The notes beneath the pieces are model-generated. The model saw only the letters and a list, made by a program, of their open reading frames with translations, made no database searches and was not told the origin of the DNA. Positions 618 to 27,630 of a stretch of DNA of 44,660 bases are shown here, one piece after another. The stretch's first letter is position 1. Every line of letters starts with the position of its first letter. Made by a program: the position numbers and the translations under genes. The stretch comes from Candidatus Brocadiaceae bacterium (GTDB lineage: Bacteria; Planctomycetota; Brocadiia; SM23-32): contig PUMZ01000165.1 of NCBI GenBank assembly GCA_003551565.1, forward strand, positions 1-44,660, written 5' to 3'.

Positions 618-3092
618 TCATTCGAGGGAGTGTTTTTTTATTTTTCTGTAGAGGGTGCTCGGTGCGATTCCCAGTTCCCGGGCGGTCGCACGGCGGTTGT
701 TGCGGTTTCGGGCCAGGGCCCGTTCGATCATAAAGGCTTCCATCCGGTCGAGTGTGCGGATTTCCTCCGCCGTCGCTGCGTTTTCCGGGGAATTGGAGCC
801 TTTGATTGACTCCGGCAGGTGGCGTGTCTCGATAATGTTGCCCCGGCAGAGAGCGAAGCTGTGTTCGATGATGTTTTCAATCTCCCTGACGTTACCGGGG
901 AAATCGTAACTCAGGAGCTGTCCCATCGCTTCATTGCTGACGCTGATAACATTCCGGCCGTACATTGCGTTGTATTTTTTGATGAAGTGCTCGACGAGCA
1001 GCCGTATGTCTTCGCGACGCTGTTTCAGGGAGGGCAATGTGAGTTTTACAACGTTGATTCTGTAAAAAAGGTCCCGGCGGAAGGTTCCGGCATCGACAAG
1101 CCGTTCGAGGTTGGCGTTGCTGGCGCTGACGATCCTCACGTCGGCTTTTTCGGGTACCGAACCCCCGACAGGCATGTAGGTTTTTTCCTGCAGCACACGC
1201 AGAAGTTGCACCTGCATGGCCGGTGACGTTTCGCTGATCTCGTCCAAAAACAGCGTTCCTCCGCGGGCCAACCGGAACCGGCCGGGTTTATCGCTTTTTG
1301 ATCCGGTGAACGCTCCGTCTTTGTGCCCGAACAGCTCCGATGCGAGCAGCGTCTCGGGCAACGCGCCGCAGTTGACGGCGATGAACGGGCCATCTCTTCT
1401 GTTGCTCAGGTTGTGCAAAGCGCGGGCCACGACCTCTTTTCCCGTCCCCGTCTCCCCCTCGATCAGCACATTGCTGCCGCTTTCTGCAATCTGCGGGAGT
1501 GTATCGAACAGTCGCTGCATCCTCCGATTTCGCCCGATAATGCCTTCGAAACTGTATTGTTCCCGCAGCTCCCTGGCCAAAGACACATCACGGAAGGTCT
1601 CAACGCCTCCGACAATCTGCCGGTCCTGATCCTTTAAAAGGGTGGTGGAGACGATGATCTCTTTGCGCTGGCCCAGCGCGTTGATAAAATGCACCGGTTT
1701 GTTTATCACGGACTCGCCGGTCTGCATGGTATGTTTCAAGGCACATTGGGCCTCGCAGATATTTGTATGCATGATACTGTGGCATTGTTTGCCGATGGCA
1801 TCTTCCCGGTCGAATCCGGTGATTTCCTCTGCAGCCTGATTGAACGACGTTATGCGCCAGTCGGTATCGATGGTCAATATGCCGTCGGGGACGAATTCCT
1901 GACCGACCGCATTTTCGGACCCGTAGGTATCGAGGATCTGGTTGGAAAGCGCACTGAGATAATGGTCCAGATCGATGTTGTTCTCTTCCGGGGCGTGGAA
2001 AAGCATCTCGTGCACCGCGGCCATAGTCCTGACCCTGGTGCTGATATCCTCAAGGAACGCGGCCTCCGGATTGTCCTTTCCGGAGTTTTTCATACCCGCC
2101 TCGAGCATGGTGACGATCGTTTCCAGATTGCTCTTCACCAGGCTGTAGCTCTCGTCGATCAGTGCCTGTTTCTCCCGCAGGGTTGTCTCAAGCCGCTCTG
2201 CCAGCTGCTTTGTTTCCGTAACGTTTTCAAAAACAGCAGCGAAGCGCTCGTTGTCGAGACGGTATGCGCTGATATTGAAATGCCCGCCTGCCGGTTCGAA
2301 ACAGCTTTCGAAAACGGCCGGTTCGCCATCAATGACAACCTTGCCGAATTTTTCGATGAGGTTTGTTTCTCTTATGTCCGGGAAGATATCCGTGGCTTTC
2401 CTGCCGAGAACATCCGAAGCCCCCAATCCCGTGTGTTTTTCAAAAGCGGGATTGACGTCCAGAAAGACATAGTCGACCGGCCGTCCGGCCTCATCCACCA
2501 CGATGCGATGGAACGCGATGGCATCAAGGGTGTTCTCGTAGAGGAGCCGGTGCTTCTCTTCGCTTTTGCGCAGTTTTAAGTCCATTGCGCGCCGGTACAG
2601 GGTCGTCTTTACAGCGGCAAGCAGTGCGTCCCCGTCGATCGGTTTCACAAGGTAACCGTAAGGTGATGTGGCCTTCGCCCGCTCAATCAACCGATCATGC
2701 GAATGGGCCGTGAGAAATATGACGGGCACGTCGGAAACCGCTCCGATATGCTCGGAGGCGTCAATGCCGTCCATATCCCCCTCCAGACTGATATCCATCA
2801 GCACCAGGTCGGGGTCCGGCCCGTTTTTCACCAATTCTACGGCCGTCTCGCCCGAAGTTGCGGGGCCCAACACGTTGTACCCCGCACCGTCCAGGGCCCG
2901 CTCACACAGCAAGGACGCAATGGGATCGTCTTCGACGATGAGGATGTTTTTTGCGCTCACTTTTTTGCCTTTCTTCCGGTCAGTACCGTCCATGGTTTCA
3001 ATTTTTCCAATATTTCCAGGCGAAAGTTTTGTCCGATTCCTGAGCAGCAACGGCTTCCAGTCCTGTGCAAGGCCCGTGCACGAAGCCGGCAT
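618..3092 (-). CDS. Sigma-54-dependent response regulator (REC - PAS - degenerate HisKA_2-like helix pair - Cys/His-rich PAS - AAA+ activator - Fis-type HTH)
   Basis: 824-aa ORF. Receiver motifs ILIVEDD, LVLMDISL, LVKP. Walker A GETGTGKE, sigma-54 contact loop GAFTGS, Walker B LFLDEI. C-terminal HTH ARELGIAPSTLYRKIKK. Met34 (MDGTDRKKGKK, start at 2993) is a plausible alternative start. Confidence 0.9.
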   Translation of the reverse strand: MPASCTGLAQDWKPLLLRNRTKLSPGNIGKIETMDGTDRKKGKKVSAKNILIVEDDPIASLLCERALDGAGYNVLGPATSGETAVELVKNGPDPDLVLMDISLEGDMDGIDASEHIGAVSDVPVIFLTAHSHDRLIERAKATSPYGYLVKPIDGDALLAAVKTTLYRRAMDLKLRKSEEKHRLLYENTLDAIAFHRIVVDEAGRPVDYVFLDVNPAFEKHTGLGASDVLGRKATDIFPDIRETNLIEKFGKVVIDGEPAVFESCFEPAGGHFNISAYRLDNERFAAVFENVTETKQLAERLETTLREKQALIDESYSLVKSNLETIVTMLEAGMKNSGKDNPEAAFLEDISTRVRTMAAVHEMLFHAPEENNIDLDHYLSALSNQILDTYGSENAVGQEFVPDGILTIDTDWRITSFNQAAEEITGFDREDAIGKQCHSIMHTNICEAQCALKHTMQTGESVINKPVHFINALGQRKEIIVSTTLLKDQDRQIVGGVETFRDVSLARELREQYSFEGIIGRNRRMQRLFDTLPQIAESGSNVLIEGETGTGKEVVARALHNLSNRRDGPFIAVNCGALPETLLASELFGHKDGAFTGSKSDKPGRFRLARGGTLFLDEISETSPAMQVQLLRVLQEKTYMPVGGSVPEKADVRIVSASNANLERLVDAGTFRRDLFYRINVVKLTLPSLKQRREDIRLLVEHFIKKYNAMYGRNVISVSNEAMGQLLSYDFPGNVREIENIIEHSFALCRGNIIETRHLPESIKGSNSPENAATAEEIRTLDRMEAFMIERALARNRNNRRATARELGIAPSTLYRKIKKHSLE

Positions 3093-3163
3093 CGTTTTGC
3101 GGAAGCTTTGGATAACTGTATATATTCACTGAACCACGTTGGTCAGTGTTATAAACATTCATA

Positions 3164-3206
3164 GAACCACAGATGGACACAGATTAACACGGGTAAGGCA
3201 CAAGAC
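3164..3206 (+). repeat. Hairpin-repeat arm A (AACCACAGATGRACAC family)
   Basis: GAACCACAGATGGACACAGATTAACACGGGTAAGGCACAAGAC. It is similar to the reverse complements of 5252-5285 and 5757-5777. Confidence 0.8.
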
Positions 3207-3456
3207 TTCAAAGTTGTTGCCCCTCCTTAACCTGCCTCTAACCCGACTTTCCGGGTTAGCTATTTTACCACCATATGTTCTTTTGTAAAAACAATGCCTT
3301 TCAGCTTTTATGTTTTTTTGCCAGTGTATTACCCTACTGTTCATTTGACATCGCACGGCATATAAGGCTATAATTGAGCCAATATGATGTGTATAAAGCT
3401 TTCTGTCTATCGAAGTGTCCGGTGACAGTATTACCCTTTCAGGAGGAGGTTTGCCA

Positions 3457-5157
3457 GTGGCTTCTATAATCAAGAAAAGAAAGAAGGGGCGGAATTATTA
3501 TTATGCGGTTCAAAGTAAAAGGGTTGATGGGGAGCCCCGGATCGTGTGGCAAAAATATCTGGGCACACTTGATCGTATTCTTGAACGGGTGGATGCTTCG
3601 GAGCCGCCAGGGCCAAAAGAAACCGTGCTGTTTGAGGCTGGGGCAGTGGCCGCCTTGCTGCAAATGGCAAATCGGTTGGCTTTAGTTGAGATAATAGACG
3701 AAATTGTTCCCAAACGTGATCAAGGCCCGTCGGTAGGACAATATATGGTGCTCGCCTCCCTAAACCGCGCTCTGGCCCCACGCAGCAAGGCTCGCATCGG
3801 GGACTGGTATGAATCGACTATTTTGCGCAGGGTGTGGGGGATGCCCGAAACTGCCTTCACCAGCCAGAGATTTTGGGACCACATGAATATGATCGGAGAG
3901 GACGAGATAAACCTGATCCAGGAGCGTCTTTTGGACAGGATAGGAGTCGAGATTGGGCTCGACACCGAAGTTCTGCTTTATGATACAACCAACTTTTTTA
4001 CCTTTATCGCTTCAACCAATGTGCGCAGCACTTTGGCCCGAAGGGGTCGAAACAAACAGAAAAGAAATGATCTGCGTCAGGTGGGACTTTCGATTATAGC
4101 CAGCCAAAAATTCCAGGTGCCGCTTATGCACAGGGTTTATGAGGGTAATTGCAATGACCTGACGCTTTTCCCGAAAGTGGTGGAATCTTTGCAGCAGCGC
4201 TATAGCCGCATTTTGCAGGAAAACACGGATACAACCTTGATATGCGACAAAGGATGCTTTGGAGAAGAAGCGCTTGAAACCCTGGCAGTGGGCGGTGTTC
4301 ATTTTGTGTGCTCTCTGCCATCCACCTACTTTTCGGAGACATTTGCCACTTCTGTCGAGCAGTTAAAACCTCTGGCCGAACCGCCCGGAACACGCGTGGC
4401 AAGCTACCCGGTGGAACTGTGGTCCAAGGAATGCCAAATGGTTCTATGTTATTCTGAAAACCTCTATACCACACAACTTGATAGTATTACGCGGCAGATG
4501 GTAAAATGCCAGAAAGCACTTGCTGATCTGCAGAGGTCCCTCCTCAGGCGGGCAACCGAAGGGGGGCGGGGTAAGCGTCCGACGGTGGGATCAGTGCGCG
4601 CTAAAGTGCGGGGCATACTGTCCGGACAATATCTTGATGAGATTATAAAAACGAAAGTGAAAGTGAAAAAGAAAGGGGCTATTCCCACCCTGCAGTATGA
4701 AGTCGACCATGACGCACTACAGCAAATAAACACCCATCGTCTGGGCCGTACGCTTCTGGTGACGGATCGCCTTGACTGGAAGCCGCAGCAGGTGGTGAAA
4801 GCCTATCGGAGTCTGGCGCGAGTAGAAGACGCATTTAAGGATATGAAGAGCACTGAGTTTTTGCAATGGCAGCCGGCGTTTCACTGGACGGACCAAAAAA
4901 TAAGGGTTCATGGATTTTACTGCGTTCTTGCGCTGACGCTTGTCCGGTTGGTGCGTAAGGTCGCCTGGGAAAATGGCATTAAGCTGTCAGTGCCGGCCTT
5001 GCTCGAAGAACTCAGTGATATAAAAGAAGTGGCGATGGTGTATCCAAAGCATTACAAGAAGGGGGGAGACAACCGGCTGACACACAGCCGGATGTCGCGG
5101 CGTCAGTTGAAGCTTGCAAAGGCCCTGGACATCGGCCGAATAACAGCCTGGGGGTAA
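3457..5157 (+). CDS. DDE transposase, IS1634 group (IS4-related)
   Basis: AGGAGG lies 7 nt upstream of GTG 3457; the ORF-track start at 3415 is an upstream in-frame GTG. N-terminus KKRKKGRNYYYAVQSKRVDGEPR. Candidate DDE residues in LLYDTTNFFTF, LICDKGCF and YRSLARVEDAFKDMKS. About 566 aa, the usual size for this group. Confidence 0.88.
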   Translation: MASIIKKRKKGRNYYYAVQSKRVDGEPRIVWQKYLGTLDRILERVDASEPPGPKETVLFEAGAVAALLQMANRLALVEIIDEIVPKRDQGPSVGQYMVLASLNRALAPRSKARIGDWYESTILRRVWGMPETAFTSQRFWDHMNMIGEDEINLIQERLLDRIGVEIGLDTEVLLYDTTNFFTFIASTNVRSTLARRGRNKQKRNDLRQVGLSIIASQKFQVPLMHRVYEGNCNDLTLFPKVVESLQQRYSRILQENTDTTLICDKGCFGEEALETLAVGGVHFVCSLPSTYFSETFATSVEQLKPLAEPPGTRVASYPVELWSKECQMVLCYSENLYTTQLDSITRQMVKCQKALADLQRSLLRRATEGGRGKRPTVGSVRAKVRGILSGQYLDEIIKTKVKVKKKGAIPTLQYEVDHDALQQINTHRLGRTLLVTDRLDWKPQQVVKAYRSLARVEDAFKDMKSTEFLQWQPAFHWTDQKIRVHGFYCVLALTLVRLVRKVAWENGIKLSVPALLEELSDIKEVAMVYPKHYKKGGDNRLTHSRMSRRQLKLAKALDIGRITAWG

Positions 5158-5251
5158 TACACAGGAATTGCCGATAAACCACTATTAGAAAGTGGGTTGT
5201 GAAACTTCTTTTTCGCTAACCCGGAAAGTCGGGCTAAACGCACTAAAAGCT

Positions 5252-5285
5252 CTTGCCGGTTTTCATCAGTGTTCATCTGTGGTTG
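5252..5285 (-). repeat. Hairpin-repeat arm B (same family, inverted)
   Basis: The reverse complement reads CAACCACAGATGAACACTGATGAAAACCGGCAAG and aligns with arm A with a few substitutions or indels. Confidence 0.8.
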
Positions 5286-5302
5286 CTGCAATTGCTGCTC
5301 CA

Positions 5303-5674
5303 TTAAAGAGAAACACGTTTACACTGAAGCCTGGGATATTTGAAATTTAACACAAGACCGGTGGGAAGTTGCGTCACCCTTAAATAGTTAATCATCTGTC
5401 CGAGCTCAACATTTGTGATTTTCTCTATAACCTTTGTGTCCACCACAACTCTATCTTCCACAATTAAATCGGGAATATATTCACCGACCTTTTTGCCTTT
5501 GTATACTATATCAAAACAGCTTTGCTGCTTGCAGATCACGCCTCTGAACTCTAATTCAACCGCCAAAGCATTTTCATAAGGTTTTTCAAGGAAACCATGC
5601 CCCATGGTGTTTAGCACTTCCATGGCCGAACCGATAATAATTCCCGTCGTGTCCGTATTTTTCGCTATCAACAA
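5303..5674 (-). CDS. GxxExxY protein (PD-(D/E)XK nuclease superfamily)
   Basis: 123 aa with a TTG start. GHGFLEKPYENALAVEL carries the G-x-x-E-x-x-Y signature. Downstream, IPDLIVEDRVVVDTK resembles a D...(D/E)xK core. Confidence 0.85.
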   Translation of the reverse strand: MLIAKNTDTTGIIIGSAMEVLNTMGHGFLEKPYENALAVELEFRGVICKQQSCFDIVYKGKKVGEYIPDLIVEDRVVVDTKVIEKITNVELGQMINYLRVTQLPTGLVLNFKYPRLQCKRVSL

Positions 5675-5703
5675 TTATCCATCCCTATAAATACGCTTTA
5701 AAT

Positions 5704-5777
5704 ACAGATGGACACAGATGTAAAAAACTTTTTTCTTTGGTTCGTTATCTGTGTTTATCTGTGTGCATCTGTGGTTC
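5704..5777. repeat. Complete hairpin copy of the same repeat family (arms D and C)
   Basis: ACAGATGGACACAGATG (5704-5720) faces three tandem ~10-nt units TATCTGTGTT/TATCTGTGTG/CATCTGTGGTTC (5746-5777). The reverse complement of 5757-5777, GAACCACAGATGCACACAGAT, differs from arm A at one base. Confidence 0.8.
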
Positions 5778-6526
5778 TTTTTCCCGGAATACGCTACGTG
5801 GTTCACTGAGGACTTTCGGATAACTTAACATTGTCTTCGGAGTCATGTCAAAAAAAAGTTCTTCTCGGATCAGACTGGCCGGGAATTCACCGCAGGAGCC
5901 TCTGAGGGCTCTCTTTGGAATGCCGTGCGTAGCGAGAGCGGATCACAGCTTTTATGTTCACAGATCCGGCAAAACGGGAAAACAACGGGTGAAAGCGGCG
6001 CTCCACTCCGTTTTGTGTTGTATTCCAAAACGGTCGTATAAAAAAATGGCCGCTCTTCACCGAAAAGACCCAAAACGGCGGCAGTTTGCCGGATCCCTGA
6101 CCGGCTTTTATGACAAATTGCGTTCCATCGATCTGTTTGATAGTGGTTAAAAGGTGCTGGAAACAGTTATTTTCTGGCATTGGTATCACTGCCAGAAATT
6201 CCGGCTAATACTTCCGGGCCGGTGTCCGATAGTAAAGTAAAGGCTGGAGGATCGGCCGAAAGGCCGCAACAGGCTCGTCGTGATCCCCTCCAGGGGGCTT
6301 CCGGAGTATGTGAAATGCCGCGTTGGTCCATGGACGGTTGCAAGCGTCCATGACGGGCGGAGTGTTCGGCCATGTGGGCGGAGGCCTGGCGTTGAGTGCG
6401 GAATGCTGCAGGGTGATTCATGCGGCGTTCATTGTGGCAGGGACTATTTTCTGTTCGCTTGAGCAAGGGTGCGGTACGGTGGTTGATAATGTGGGAAACA
6501 ATATTATAAGGGATCTGACGCGCATT

Positions 6527-27219: not shown

Positions 27220-27630
27220 ACCGGGCCCTTTTTCTGCTGCAGGAATCCGTGGCCCGCACGAATTCGCACAGTTTTTTGCGCCCCTGGTTGATTTTCGTTA
27301 CGTTTATCCTGGTTTGATGTTATGCGTTAATGCTCTTTGTTTTATTGCGCCGGATATCCCGTACGGAGGTAGAATATTGCAGGTAACTGCTCGGTGAACT
27401 ACGTCAATTCATCCCCACCGTGCCCTGTGCCGGTGGGGAAACTACGGGGTTCACCGAATACTTACAGTTACGGCATGGTGCAGGGTCCCATGATTCAGAA
27501 GACGTGTTCCATGGGTTTGTGGTGAAGGCGCTATGGTTGGGAAATGTTCCGGAGCCTGTTTGTCGGTGAGCCTCCGTGGGCGCCGTTCGGCTTTGGAACG
27601 GCGTATCACCAACCAATTCGCTGAAAGCCG

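What the first reader, a model, noticed from the sequence alone, without database searches (positions are those of the whole stretch)
3106..5825. GxxExxY nuclease-family gene lies in a small repeat-bounded insertion, itself invaded by an IS, in the promoter region of the sigma-54 regulator
A 12/13-nt direct repeat (CTTTGGATAACT at 3106-3117; CTTTCGGATAACT at 5813-5825) sits just outside the short inverted repeats TCACTGAACCACGT (3126-3139) and ACGTGGTTCACTGA (5796-5809). Inside are four arms of the AACCACAGATGRACAC repeat in the order plus, minus, plus, minus (3164, 5285, 5704, 5777). The IS lies between the first pair and the GxxExxY gene between the second and third. Without the IS the unit would be only about 0.6-0.7 kb. 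This layout looks like a target-site duplication around a miniature mobile element whose only cargo is a PD-(D/E)XK-family gene. The left repeat lies 14 nt from the longest start of the regulator gene (113 nt from Met34), so the insertion may affect its expression.
Basis: partly seen in the sequence, partly recalled or inferred. Interest (0 to 1): 0.6.

Follow-up and report, generated by a model that had tools for sequence, protein, structure and literature searches.

The report
Nested mobile elements carrying GxxExxY nuclease

Summary

- **Outer shell.** Window 3118-5817 is a non-autonomous IS66-type element. It has 22-nt imperfect terminal inverted repeats and a perfect 8-bp target-site duplication, GGATAACT (3110-3117 and 5818-5825).
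- **Family.** The shell is abundant in soda-lake metagenomes. Seven of 25 complete copies, the window's included, have perfect 8-bp duplications. A 1.9-kb relative encodes an IS66 transposase.
- **Cargo.** Nearly the same shell with the GxxExxY gene, without the IS, lies at other sites with other duplications.
- **IS.** An IS1634-family element (about 3233-5242) sits in a hairpin loop.
- **Wider result.** The AACCACAGATGRACAC arms are not local. In 64 of 79 GxxExxY loci from many phyla, the gene lies between inverted arms of three tandem 8-10-nt units. Arms are far better conserved than the gene. Gene-less hairpins with the same arms are dispersed in more than ten phyla. The arm-bounded unit is present or absent at conserved gene junctions.

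I read GxxExxY plus arms as a small selfish nuclease cassette. Its mechanism is inferred, not shown. No empty site for this locus was found, and any effect on the sigma-54 regulator is untested.

The parts
3110..3117 (.). Left copy of the 8-bp target-site duplication, GGATAACT
   Evidence: It directly abuts the element end. It is identical to 5818-5825, and these are the only two occurrences in the window.
3118..5817 (+). Whole composite insertion: an IS66-derived non-autonomous shell that carries the GxxExxY cassette and a nested IS. It is 2700 bp, or about 697 bp without the IS.
   Evidence: Copies in metagenome contigs diverge from the window exactly at 3118 and near 5815. The family termini and duplications are tabulated. 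GC is 40.9% against 55.7% for the window.
3118..3139 (+). Left terminal inverted repeat of the shell, GTATATATTCACTGAACCACGT
   Evidence: Conserved at the left end of 40 metagenome loci, with variable DNA before the first G. It matches the reverse complement of the right end at 16 of 22 positions (read).
3165..3218 (+). Arm 1 (+) of the GxxExxY-type repeat, AACCACAGATGGACACAGATTAACAC... It is the outer arm of hairpin 1, and it also pairs with 5723-5778.
   Evidence: Inverted repeats I1 (56 nt, 77% complementary) and I2 (33 nt, 82%); motif matches.
3233..5242 (+). IS1634-family insertion sequence, placed by its own inverted repeats (3233-3260 and 5215-5242). It sits in the loop of hairpin 1.
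   Evidence: Inverted repeat I3, 28 nt at 89%. The IS-less relatives L309 and L282 have an intact loop here. Other copies of the IS start to match at 3238-3242. Its own target duplication is not resolved.
3415..5157 (+). IS1634-family DDE transposase gene (longest ORF, 580 aa)
   Evidence: NCBIfam NF033559, E 4.3e-79. Pfam DDE_Tnp_1, E 5.8e-9.
5252..5284 (-). Arm 2 (-), the inner arm of hairpin 1. It lies 18 nt beyond the stop codon of the GxxExxY gene.
   Evidence: (I2).
5303..5674 (-). GxxExxY gene (PD-(D/E)XK nuclease superfamily), 123 codons from a TTG. The ATG start of relatives is ATA here.
   Evidence: Pfam PF13366, E 2.7e-34. TIGR04256, E 1.3e-36. E30, D69 and K81 are invariant and D79 nearly invariant in the family alignment. 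AlphaFold2 pLDDT 92. Start-codon comparison.
5704..5719 (+). Arm 3 (+), the inner and shortened arm of hairpin 2, upstream of the gene
   Evidence: (D8, I5). The hairpin at 5698-5782 folds with z = -6.0 as DNA.
5747..5778 (-). Arm 4 (-), the outer arm of hairpin 2, with three units: ATCTGTGTTT ATCTGTGTGC ATCTGTGGTT
5796..5817 (+). Right terminal inverted repeat of the shell, ACGTGGTTCACTGAGGACTTTC
   Evidence: One mismatch to the family consensus GGTTCACTGAGGACTTAC.
5818..5825 (.). Right copy of the 8-bp target-site duplication, GGATAACT
618..3092 (-). Context: sigma-54-dependent response regulator (REC-PAS-AAA+-HTH). The insertion lies in its upstream region.
   Evidence: Pfam Sigma54_activat, E 3e-67, plus Response_reg, PAS and HTH_8.
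27383..27465 (+). A second, short (about 83 nt) and degenerate copy of the same shell family, without cargo
   Evidence: Both end motifs match with 3 mismatches. Sequence. It folds at -23.4 kcal/mol, z = -6.6. No duplication is recognisable.

Best explanation
The locus is a stack of three mobile layers inserted 18 nt upstream of the longest reading frame of a sigma-54 response regulator.

**Layer 1, shown.** Window 3118-5817 is a non-autonomous derivative of an IS66-family insertion sequence. In effect it is a mobile insertion cassette. It has 22-nt imperfect terminal inverted repeats and made an exact 8-bp target duplication, GGATAACT, on insertion. It was most probably moved in trans by an IS66-type DDE transposase (inferred).

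**Layer 2, anatomy shown, mechanism inferred.** The cargo is a GxxExxY cassette. This is a promoterless gene of about 120 codons for a minimal PD-(D/E)XK nuclease of the lambda-exonuclease/Cas4-like fold. It is bounded by inverted arms built of three tandem roughly 10-nt units (core CRCNRAT plus an RRA spacer). Here each arm has grown into a full hairpin.

This arm-gene-arm unit is the normal form of the gene family across Bacteria and Archaea. It behaves as an insertion unit of its own. It drops co-oriented into tight spacers between genes, leaves no recognisable duplication, and has many gene-less hairpin relatives.

My preferred mechanism is that the arms are multi-site DNA platforms for the encoded nuclease. 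The nuclease would promote movement or copying of the cassette, and in trans of the gene-less hairpins. This resembles the REPIN/RAYT arrangement but with different chemistry.

**Layer 3, shown.** An IS1634-family element later inserted into the loop of the downstream hairpin.

The window's copy looks to be in decay. The ATG start codon seen in relatives is ATA here.
For: **Layer 1**
- The 8-mer GGATAACT abuts both ends and occurs only there in the window.
- 40 metagenome loci share the termini.
- Of 25 copies with both ends, 7 have 8/8 duplications that all differ from one another: the window, L282, L285, L290, L292, L303 and L308. Two more have 7/8.
- L293 carries the same termini around a gene with PF03050 (IS66 transposase), E 1.5e-58.
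- IS66 elements are described as having inverted repeats that begin GTAAGCG and 8-bp direct repeats (PMC11946415). The right end here reads GTAAG... in reverse complement.
- The identical 739-bp gene-carrying unit lies in at least 5 different flanks. L323 (GGCTCGAC) and L328 (AGATTAAC) have perfect duplications.
- A second, cargo-less copy lies in the same window.

**Layer 2**
- 64 of 79 GxxExxY loci have flanking inverted arms scoring at least 12, against 0 of 79 for shuffled controls.
- The unit structure, homogeneous within each element, is shown. Elements are 411-483 bp.
- Of 45 ORFs of 90-170 aa with a strong flanking inverted repeat, among 2312 tested, 40 are GxxExxY.
- The exact 20-mer occurs in more than 120 loci from more than 10 phyla. 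Only 4 of the 120 contain the gene.
- Arms are 87% identical on average, and up to 60/60, where the coding sequences are 57% identical.
- Occupied and empty junctions are bounded by the arms at fabD|fabG and at radA|FAD-dependent gene.
- The gene is co-oriented with its upstream neighbour in 51 of 66 loci, p = 1e-5.
- Fold: pLDDT 92; best matches are lambda exonuclease, LHK-Exo and Cas4 SSO0001, TM 0.55-0.58.

**Layer 3**.
Against: - No empty allele of this very site was found. The regulator has no close ortholog in the genome collection, and the empty-site pattern gave no hit in metagenome contigs.
- Several copies of the 739-bp unit have unmatched flanks (L309, L325, L327, L329). This may reflect chimeric assembly across a repeat or recombination between copies.
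- The IS66-bearing relative L293 shows no duplication in its short contig.
- For layer 2, nothing shows that the nuclease binds or cuts the arms.
- No duplication flanks the arm-level units.
- The empty/occupied comparisons are between species only about 72-75% identical, so exact junctions are unknown.
- Arm core class tracks protein similarity only weakly, 0.54 against 0.51. That is not what simple co-evolution of a nuclease with its site predicts.
- Unit period varies from 8 to 10 nt between classes.
Confidence: 0.75

Rival explanations
1. The arms work mainly as RNA. The 5' and 3' arms of the co-transcribed cassette pair into a long stem. The stem hides the start region of a potentially harmful nuclease mRNA, like the 5'-3' lock of hok mRNA. 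Alternatively it is cut by RNase III, like the stems of 23S rRNA intervening sequences, so the cassette is tolerated inside operons. Spread would then depend on other agents such as the IS66 shell.
For: - The cassettes are promoterless, sit in operon spacers, and are co-oriented with their neighbours.
- In some members the 5' arm overlaps the start codon; ATGAACACAGAT encodes MNTD.
- The period-8/9 classes carry Shine-Dalgarno-like GGAG/GAGG/AAGG units directly before the ATG.
- The hairpins fold well, z = -5 to -6.
- In this window the cassette did travel inside a DDE-type shell.
Against: - Mismatches show no clear strand-specific G:U excess: 62 sense against 45 antisense.
- Spacer triplets are not kept complementary between the arms, about 25 of 54, while unit cores are conserved regardless of pairing.
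- Some gene-less copies are perfect palindromes with no loop, such as L091.
- Arms identical across phyla need more than pairing to explain them.
- No Rfam family matches.
Confidence: 0.25
2. GxxExxY is a free-standing homing-type nuclease. It cuts cassette-less alleles or gene-less palindromic hairpins, and the cassette is copied in by recombinational repair. The gene-less hairpins would then be targets or decayed remnants, not trans-mobilised copies.
For: - The gene lies exactly in the centre of a long inverted repeat, and the arm-level unit has no target duplication.
- Empty and occupied alleles exist at conserved gene junctions.
- The shell copy L291 holds only the hairpin, where the window, L282 and L309 hold hairpin plus gene.
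- The protein has a nuclease fold.
- Tandem two-domain family members suggest a dimer acting on a symmetric site.
Against: - The empty fabD|fabG and radA junctions contain no arm-like palindrome, so the arms arrived with the gene.
- The dispersal of dozens of gene-less hairpins would still need a mover.
- No cleavage data exist.
Confidence: 0.2
3. The 12/13-nt direct repeat and the 14-nt inverted repeat are chance matches in an AT-rich spacer, and nothing inserted here as a unit.
For:
- No empty site was found.
Against: - An exact 8-mer abuts ends that were defined independently from 40 other copies.
- The 8-mer is unique to these two places in the window.
- Other copies carry other 8-mers.
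- The insert's GC content is 15 points below the window's.
Confidence: 0.02

Closest known systems
MITEs and mobile insertion cassettes derived from IS66-family insertion sequences
   Same: - Terminal inverted repeats and an 8-bp target duplication.
- Many short copies of 83-300 nt with no transposase.
- A full-length relative with the same ends and an IS66 DDE transposase.
- A non-transposase ORF as cargo, which is the defining trait of a mobile insertion cassette.
   Different: - The left end begins GTATAT rather than GTAAGCG, and the repeats are only 16/22 complementary in this copy.
- The cargo is itself a second repeat-bounded unit.
- The interiors of shell copies are swapped among several hairpin families.
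REPIN/RAYT systems (REP hairpin doublets with a REP-associated tyrosine transposase)
   Same: - A small gene of about 120-150 codons is flanked by inverted copies of a short repeat.
- That repeat also occurs as many gene-less hairpins in intergenic DNA of the same genomes.
- No target duplication.
   Different: - The protein is a PD-(D/E)XK nuclease, not an HUH/Y1 transposase.
- The arms are three tandem 8-10-nt units rather than a single REP palindrome.
- The gene is multi-copy, where RAYTs are usually single-copy.
- The same arm sequence is shared across phyla.
Free-standing homing endonuclease genes, such as the phage T4 seg and mob genes
   Same: - A promoterless nuclease gene inserted between conserved genes in their orientation.
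- Presence/absence variation between relatives.
   Different: - These cassettes carry their own long inverted arms and leave arm-only derivatives.
- The hosts are cellular chromosomes of many phyla.
- No cleavage site is known.
ORF-bearing intervening sequences of 23S rRNA (from my own knowledge of Leptospira and Coxiella; not tested here)
   Same: A small ORF enclosed by terminal inverted repeats that form a long stem in the transcript. The ORF family is multi-copy and patchily distributed.
   Different: The protein family is different (a four-helix bundle). The location is rRNA helices. Excision by RNase III is established there and untested here.
Ends of Mu, Tn7 and similar transposons with several transposase-binding sites
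   Same: Three similar sites in direct order at each end, inverted between the two ends.
   Different: The sites here are only 7-nt cores at 8-10-nt spacing. The element is about 0.45 kb with a 14-kDa protein. No duplication is seen and binding is not shown.

Membership tests
IS66-derived non-autonomous element (MITE / mobile insertion cassette) | Terminal inverted repeats at the exact ends of the unit | tested here: met
   3118-3139 against 5796-5817, 16/22 complementary. The ends were defined by 40 other copies.
IS66-derived non-autonomous element (MITE / mobile insertion cassette) | 8-bp target-site duplication that differs between copies | tested here: met
   GGATAACT in the window. Six other copies have 8/8 with six different words, and two more have 7/8. 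L323 and L328 also have perfect duplications. The 8-bp size for IS66 is from PMC11946415.
IS66-derived non-autonomous element (MITE / mobile insertion cassette) | No transposase of its own, together with an autonomous relative that has the same ends | tested here: met
   The only native ORF is GxxExxY. L293 has the same termini around a PF03050 IS66 transposase, E 1.5e-58. This rests on a single example, which shows no duplication in its short contig.
IS66-derived non-autonomous element (MITE / mobile insertion cassette) | Mobilisation in trans by that transposase | not testable with these tools
   Needs a transposition assay.
GxxExxY protein (TIGR04256 / Pfam PF13366, PD-(D/E)XK superfamily) | Profile scores above the curated cut-offs | tested here: met
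   125.4 bits against a cut-off of 35; 118.4 bits against 22.
GxxExxY protein (TIGR04256 / Pfam PF13366, PD-(D/E)XK superfamily) | Catalytic signature (E in GxxExxY, D, then (D/E)xK) and the restriction-endonuclease-like fold | tested here: met
   E30, D69 and K81 are invariant and D79 nearly invariant. The model has pLDDT 92, and its best matches are lambda exonuclease, LHK-Exo and Cas4 SSO0001.
GxxExxY protein (TIGR04256 / Pfam PF13366, PD-(D/E)XK superfamily) | Nuclease activity | not testable with these tools
   The function of this family is listed as unknown in PMC3424549.
IS1634-family insertion sequence | Family transposase and terminal inverted repeats | tested here: met
   NF033559, 266.8 bits against a cut-off of 100. 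Inverted repeats 3233-3260 and 5215-5242, 89%. Multi-copy by read depth.
IS1634-family insertion sequence | Short target duplication at its own ends | tested here: inconclusive
   Comparison with the IS-less loops of L309 and L282 does not give an unambiguous duplication.
REPIN/RAYT-type system | Gene flanked by inverted repeat copies, with many gene-less hairpins of the same repeat | tested here: met
REPIN/RAYT-type system | HUH/Y1 (IS200/IS605-like) transposase | tested here: not met
   The protein is PD-(D/E)XK. This is therefore not a member, only a parallel in layout.
Integron gene cassette (attC) | attC core sites RYYYAAC ... GTTRRRY at the cassette boundary | tested here: not met
   The arms begin AAC and end GTT, but the neighbouring letters are variable flank and do not fit RYYY/RRRY. 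Core-site consensus is from my own knowledge.
Any curated RNA family (Rfam 15) | Covariance-model match at the gathering score | tested here: not met
   No match in the window or in 17 related loci. Only chance-level miRNA matches appear at E of 0.37 or higher.

The most novel reading that the evidence does not exclude
GxxExxY genes with their triple-unit inverted arms are a previously undescribed class of minimal autonomous mobile element found across prokaryotes. The element is about 410-480 bp. A 14-kDa PD-(D/E)XK nuclease would recognise the repeated units at both ends. It would move or copy the cassette, and in trans the far more numerous gene-less hairpins, without a target duplication. 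That would make it a REPIN/RAYT-like system with unrelated chemistry, and it would give a function to a family of more than 22,000 sequence clusters.
Probability: 0.3. Interest if true: 0.85.

Novelty: new variant of a known kind. Interest (0 to 1): 0.68.

Why it matters
- **A lead on an unassigned family.** GxxExxY (PF13366) is large: 22,403 clusters at 50% identity in the library searched. It is found in Bacteria, Archaea and viruses, and its function is listed as unknown (PMC3424549). A fixed, sequence-conserved arm-gene-arm unit that inserts into operon spacers and leaves hairpin-only relatives turns an anonymous annotation into a testable mobile-element hypothesis.
- **An explanation for a dispersed repeat.** It accounts for a 30-nt repeat shared almost letter for letter by cyanobacteria, Acidobacteriota, Planctomycetota, Verrucomicrobiota, NC10 and others.
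- **A worked annotation example.** The locus shows three-layer nesting of IS66-type shell, nuclease cassette and IS1634. This kind of region breaks metagenome assemblies.

Tried and rejected
**Searches that found nothing**
- Ortholog route to an empty site. The best relative of the regulator in 185,579 species genomes is 55% identical over the C-terminal half only.
- Exact look-ups of the window's GxxExxY protein with three start choices: not on record.
- Empty-site pattern in metagenome contigs: 0 hits. No 3117-to-5826 joint appeared among the listed joints of four runs.
- Rfam, at gathering score and at E-value threshold: nothing.
- PDB by sequence: nothing.
- PADLOC and PHROGs: nothing.
- Literature by family name, accessions and repeat strings. 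GxxExxY is named only in passing in two listed papers, PF13366 is listed as of unknown function, and no relevant paper contains the repeats.
- RNA runs: only one wastewater metatranscriptome, holding 4% of the words. Not pursued.

**Tests that were negative or uninformative**
- Strand-specific wobble test for RNA pairing: not significant.
- Target duplications next to the arm-level units: none.
- Other recurrent cargo between such arms: none. A DUF1854 gene, TruB and a sugar dehydratase are ordinary genes lying between separate hairpins.
- Decayed GxxExxY genes inside 400-nt gene-less hairpins: none detectable by HMM.
- Co-evolution of protein and arm class: weak.

**Ideas considered from memory and set aside because the letters do not fit**
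- attC sites, DnaA boxes, Fur boxes, CsrA GGA motifs and Pho boxes.

**Rejected readings**
- The shell of L303 is not an IS3 element's own ends. The IS3-like orfAB there is nested, as IS1634 is here.

Full report
**Observation.** The arm motif CACAGATGRACAC, with up to one mismatch, occurs six times in the 44.6-kb window. All six are in this locus, against 0.05 expected. Between arms 1 and 2 lies an IS1634-family transposase gene (NF033559, E 4e-79). Between arms 2 and 3 lies a 123-codon GxxExxY gene (PF13366, E 3e-34; TIGR04256, E 1e-36). To the left is a REC-PAS-AAA+-HTH sigma-54 activator. Logan contigs of a public salt-lake run cross both junctions with unique DNA, at 2630-3147 and from 5736 on. 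The layout is therefore not an artefact of one assembly.

**Outer layer.** Laying metagenome contigs on the region showed unique flanks at depth 7-10 and arms at about 200. Other copies stop resembling the window exactly at 3118 and near 5815.

A scan of JGI metagenome contigs for TATATTCASTGAACCMCGT returned 40 loci, mostly soda-lake sediment. They define a family with ends 5'-GTATATATTCAGTGAACCNCGT ... ACGNGGTTCACTGAGGACTTAC-3'. Most copies are 83-300 nt. Of 25 copies with both ends present, seven have perfect 8-bp direct repeats directly outside the ends, each a different word. Two more have 7/8.

In the window the element is 3118-5817 and the duplication is GGATAACT, at 3110-3117 and 5818-5825. 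This word occurs nowhere else in the window.

One relative, L293, has the same ends around a 549-aa protein with the IS66 transposase domain (E 1.5e-58). IS66 elements are described as having inverted repeats that start GTAAGCG and 8-bp direct repeats (PMC11946415). The shell is therefore an IS66-derived non-autonomous element. A second, cargo-less and degenerate copy lies at 27383-27465 of the same window.

**The gene-carrying form moves as a unit.** L282/L323 holds a 739-bp shell-plus-GxxExxY unit with the duplication GGCTCGAC. L328 holds the identical unit with AGATTAAC. The same protein, P0001, which is 91% identical to the window's, is found on nine contigs. On six of the contigs where both ends are on the contig, the unit is identical, with at least five different flanks. 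Some of those have unmatched flanks, which may be assembly chimeras. L309 holds a 706-bp version without a duplication. With the IS taken out, the window's unit is 697 bp. It is 89.7% identical to L309 and 87.3% to L282. Its GC content is 40.9% against 55.7% for the window.

**The IS.** The IS1634-family element is delimited by its own 28-nt inverted repeats, 3233-3260 and 5215-5242. It interrupts the loop of the hairpin downstream of the GxxExxY gene. That loop is intact in L309 and L282. The IS is multi-copy in the same metagenomes. I could not resolve its own duplication. Another shell copy, L303, has been hit by an IS3-like element.

**The protein.** An AlphaFold2 model built from a 50-sequence alignment is confident (pLDDT 92). 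The best Foldseek matches in the PDB are lambda exonuclease, LHK-Exo and the Cas4 protein SSO0001 (TM 0.55-0.58, E 2e-4 to 1e-3). Holliday-junction resolvases rank far lower. E30, D69 and K81 are invariant and D79 nearly invariant in the family. There is no solved relative by sequence, no match in PADLOC or PHROGs, and the family's function is listed as unknown (PMC3424549). The family has 22,403 representatives at 50% identity with E up to 1e-3. In the window, the ATG start codon of relatives is ATA, leaving only TTG codons just upstream.

**Inner layer, the wider result.** The hits come from cyanobacteria, Acidobacteriota, Planctomycetota, Verrucomicrobiota, Chloroflexota, NC10, Nitrospinota, Latescibacterota and others. 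Only 4 of the 120 loci hold a GxxExxY gene, by tblastn or by HMM. Most of the rest are stand-alone hairpins of 40-300 nt with unrelated loops; others have no recognisable partner arm.

Conversely, I examined 79 of the 80 GxxExxY loci fetched by protein similarity, which include archaeal ones. In 64 of them, inverted arms flank the gene with a score of at least 12. None of 79 shuffled controls reached that score. The usual layout is arm, gene, inverted arm, 411-483 bp in all.

Each arm is three tandem units: a 7-nt core CRCNRAT and a purine-rich 3-nt spacer. The core variant differs between elements (CACAGAT, CACGGAT, CGCAGAT, CGCGAAT, CACGAAT, CACCGAT and others). Within one element it is shared by up to all six units. 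More distant members, at 30-39% identity, have arms of other unit types with 8-9-nt period: CACAGAGGA in Bacteroides and Bernardetia, CGCGAAGG in Sphingomonas.

Among 2312 ORFs of 90-170 aa in all fetched loci, 45 have a strong flanking inverted repeat, and 40 of those are GxxExxY. Within the CACAGAT class, arms are 87% identical on average. They reach 60/60 between two different acidobacterial assemblies (a Blastocatellia MAG and an uncultured Acidobacteriota MAG) whose coding sequences are 64% identical. The mean for coding sequences is 57%.

**The arm-bounded unit is itself an insertion.**
- In Sphingomonas parapaucimobilis the unit lies between fabD and fabG. S. paeninsulae has a plain 32-nt spacer there.
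- In Bacteroides finegoldii the unit starts one base after the radA stop codon and ends five bases before the next start codon. Parabacteroides distasonis has a 13-nt spacer at that junction.
- The gene is co-oriented with its upstream neighbour in 51 of 66 loci and with its downstream neighbour in 48 of 70.
- No direct repeat flanks these units.

**The window's version.** The window is a variant in which each arm is a complete hairpin, in the order + - gene + -. The outermost arms still pair over 56 nt. L291 is the same shell with only the hairpin. Hairpins of sibling repeat families are often nested in one another.

**How it most likely works.**

Shown:
- Three nested insertions.
- An IS66-type shell with its duplication.
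- A conserved arm-gene-arm unit that is present or absent at conserved junctions.
- Gene-less hairpins that greatly outnumber the cassettes.

Inferred:
- The shell was moved in trans by an IS66 transposase.
- The arms are multi-site DNA platforms for the encoded nuclease, which promotes spread of the cassette and of the hairpins.

The RNA reading treats the arms as a 5'-3' lock or an RNase III stem. It fits the promoterless, co-oriented placement and the start codons inside some arms. It gets no support from the wobble test, from the spacers, which are not kept complementary, or from the loop-less palindromes. A homing reading fits the central position of the gene and the lack of a duplication, but the empty junctions hold no arm-like site. 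These readings are not exclusive. The weak link between protein similarity and arm class warns against a simple model in which a nuclease recognises its own site.

**Comparison and novelty.** The outer layer is a new member of a known kind, an IS66-derived MITE or mobile insertion cassette. The inner layer resembles REPIN/RAYT systems and free-standing homing nuclease genes in layout. It fails the defining feature of the former, because there is no HUH transposase, and it has features neither shows. I found no description of the arms in Rfam or in the searchable literature. That is not proof that nobody has noted them.

**Limits.** No empty allele of this site was found, the regulator's expression was not tested, and no biochemistry exists.

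Noticed in passing
window 27383-27465: A second copy of the IS66-type shell. It is short (about 83 nt), degenerate at the left end, and has a strong central hairpin (CCCCACCG...CGGTGGGG). It carries no cargo and has no recognisable duplication.
   Followed up: partly
window 5666-5668 (minus strand): The start codon ATG of the closest relatives (L309, L282) is ATA in the window. Only two TTG codons lie just upstream, so this gene copy may be poorly translated or decaying.
   Followed up: partly
L293 (about 362-2270): A 1.9-kb element with the shell's termini that encodes an IS66-family transposase as a single ORF of 549 aa. It is the likely autonomous partner of the shell family.
   Followed up: partly
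L303; L286, L298, L320: Shell copies act as containers. One holds an IS3-like orfAB and has a perfect 8-bp duplication. Others hold hairpins of a different triple-repeat family (CGGGATCG units).
   Followed up: partly
L007 5340-5500; L012 2560-2720; L256 about 1380-1860: Hairpins of the CACAGAT class sit inside the loops of outer hairpins built from other triple repeats (CACCAAG, CACGGAG, GCACGGAA). Nesting of hairpin in hairpin seems common.
   Followed up: no
L247 210-1177; L005 4567-5172; L099 6394-6958: Other triple-repeat inverted arms (AATTTTG, GGAGTCA and GCGA(T/C)GA units) flank ordinary host genes or other non-cassette DNA rather than nuclease cassettes. Examples are a sugar dehydratase and a 162-aa ORF of unknown family.
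   Followed up: no
P0256 and about 20 of the top 150 hits: One representative of 3143 aa has 20 matched GxxExxY stretches. About twenty representatives are roughly 260-aa proteins with two GxxExxY domains in tandem.
   Followed up: no
arms of the CACAGATGAA class, e.g. L226 1480-1510: With a 10-nt period, the repeated ATGA places TGA stops and ATG starts in successive reading frames of the + arm. The - arm has no stop in any frame. Several ORFs start MNTD inside the arm.
   Followed up: no
window 5845-6150: The 101-codon ORF just right of the insertion matches no Pfam or NCBIfam family. It may not be a gene, so the true right-hand neighbour of the insertion is uncertain.
   Followed up: partly
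L326 370-795: A HepT-like toxin gene lies next to one copy of the 739-bp composite.
   Followed up: no
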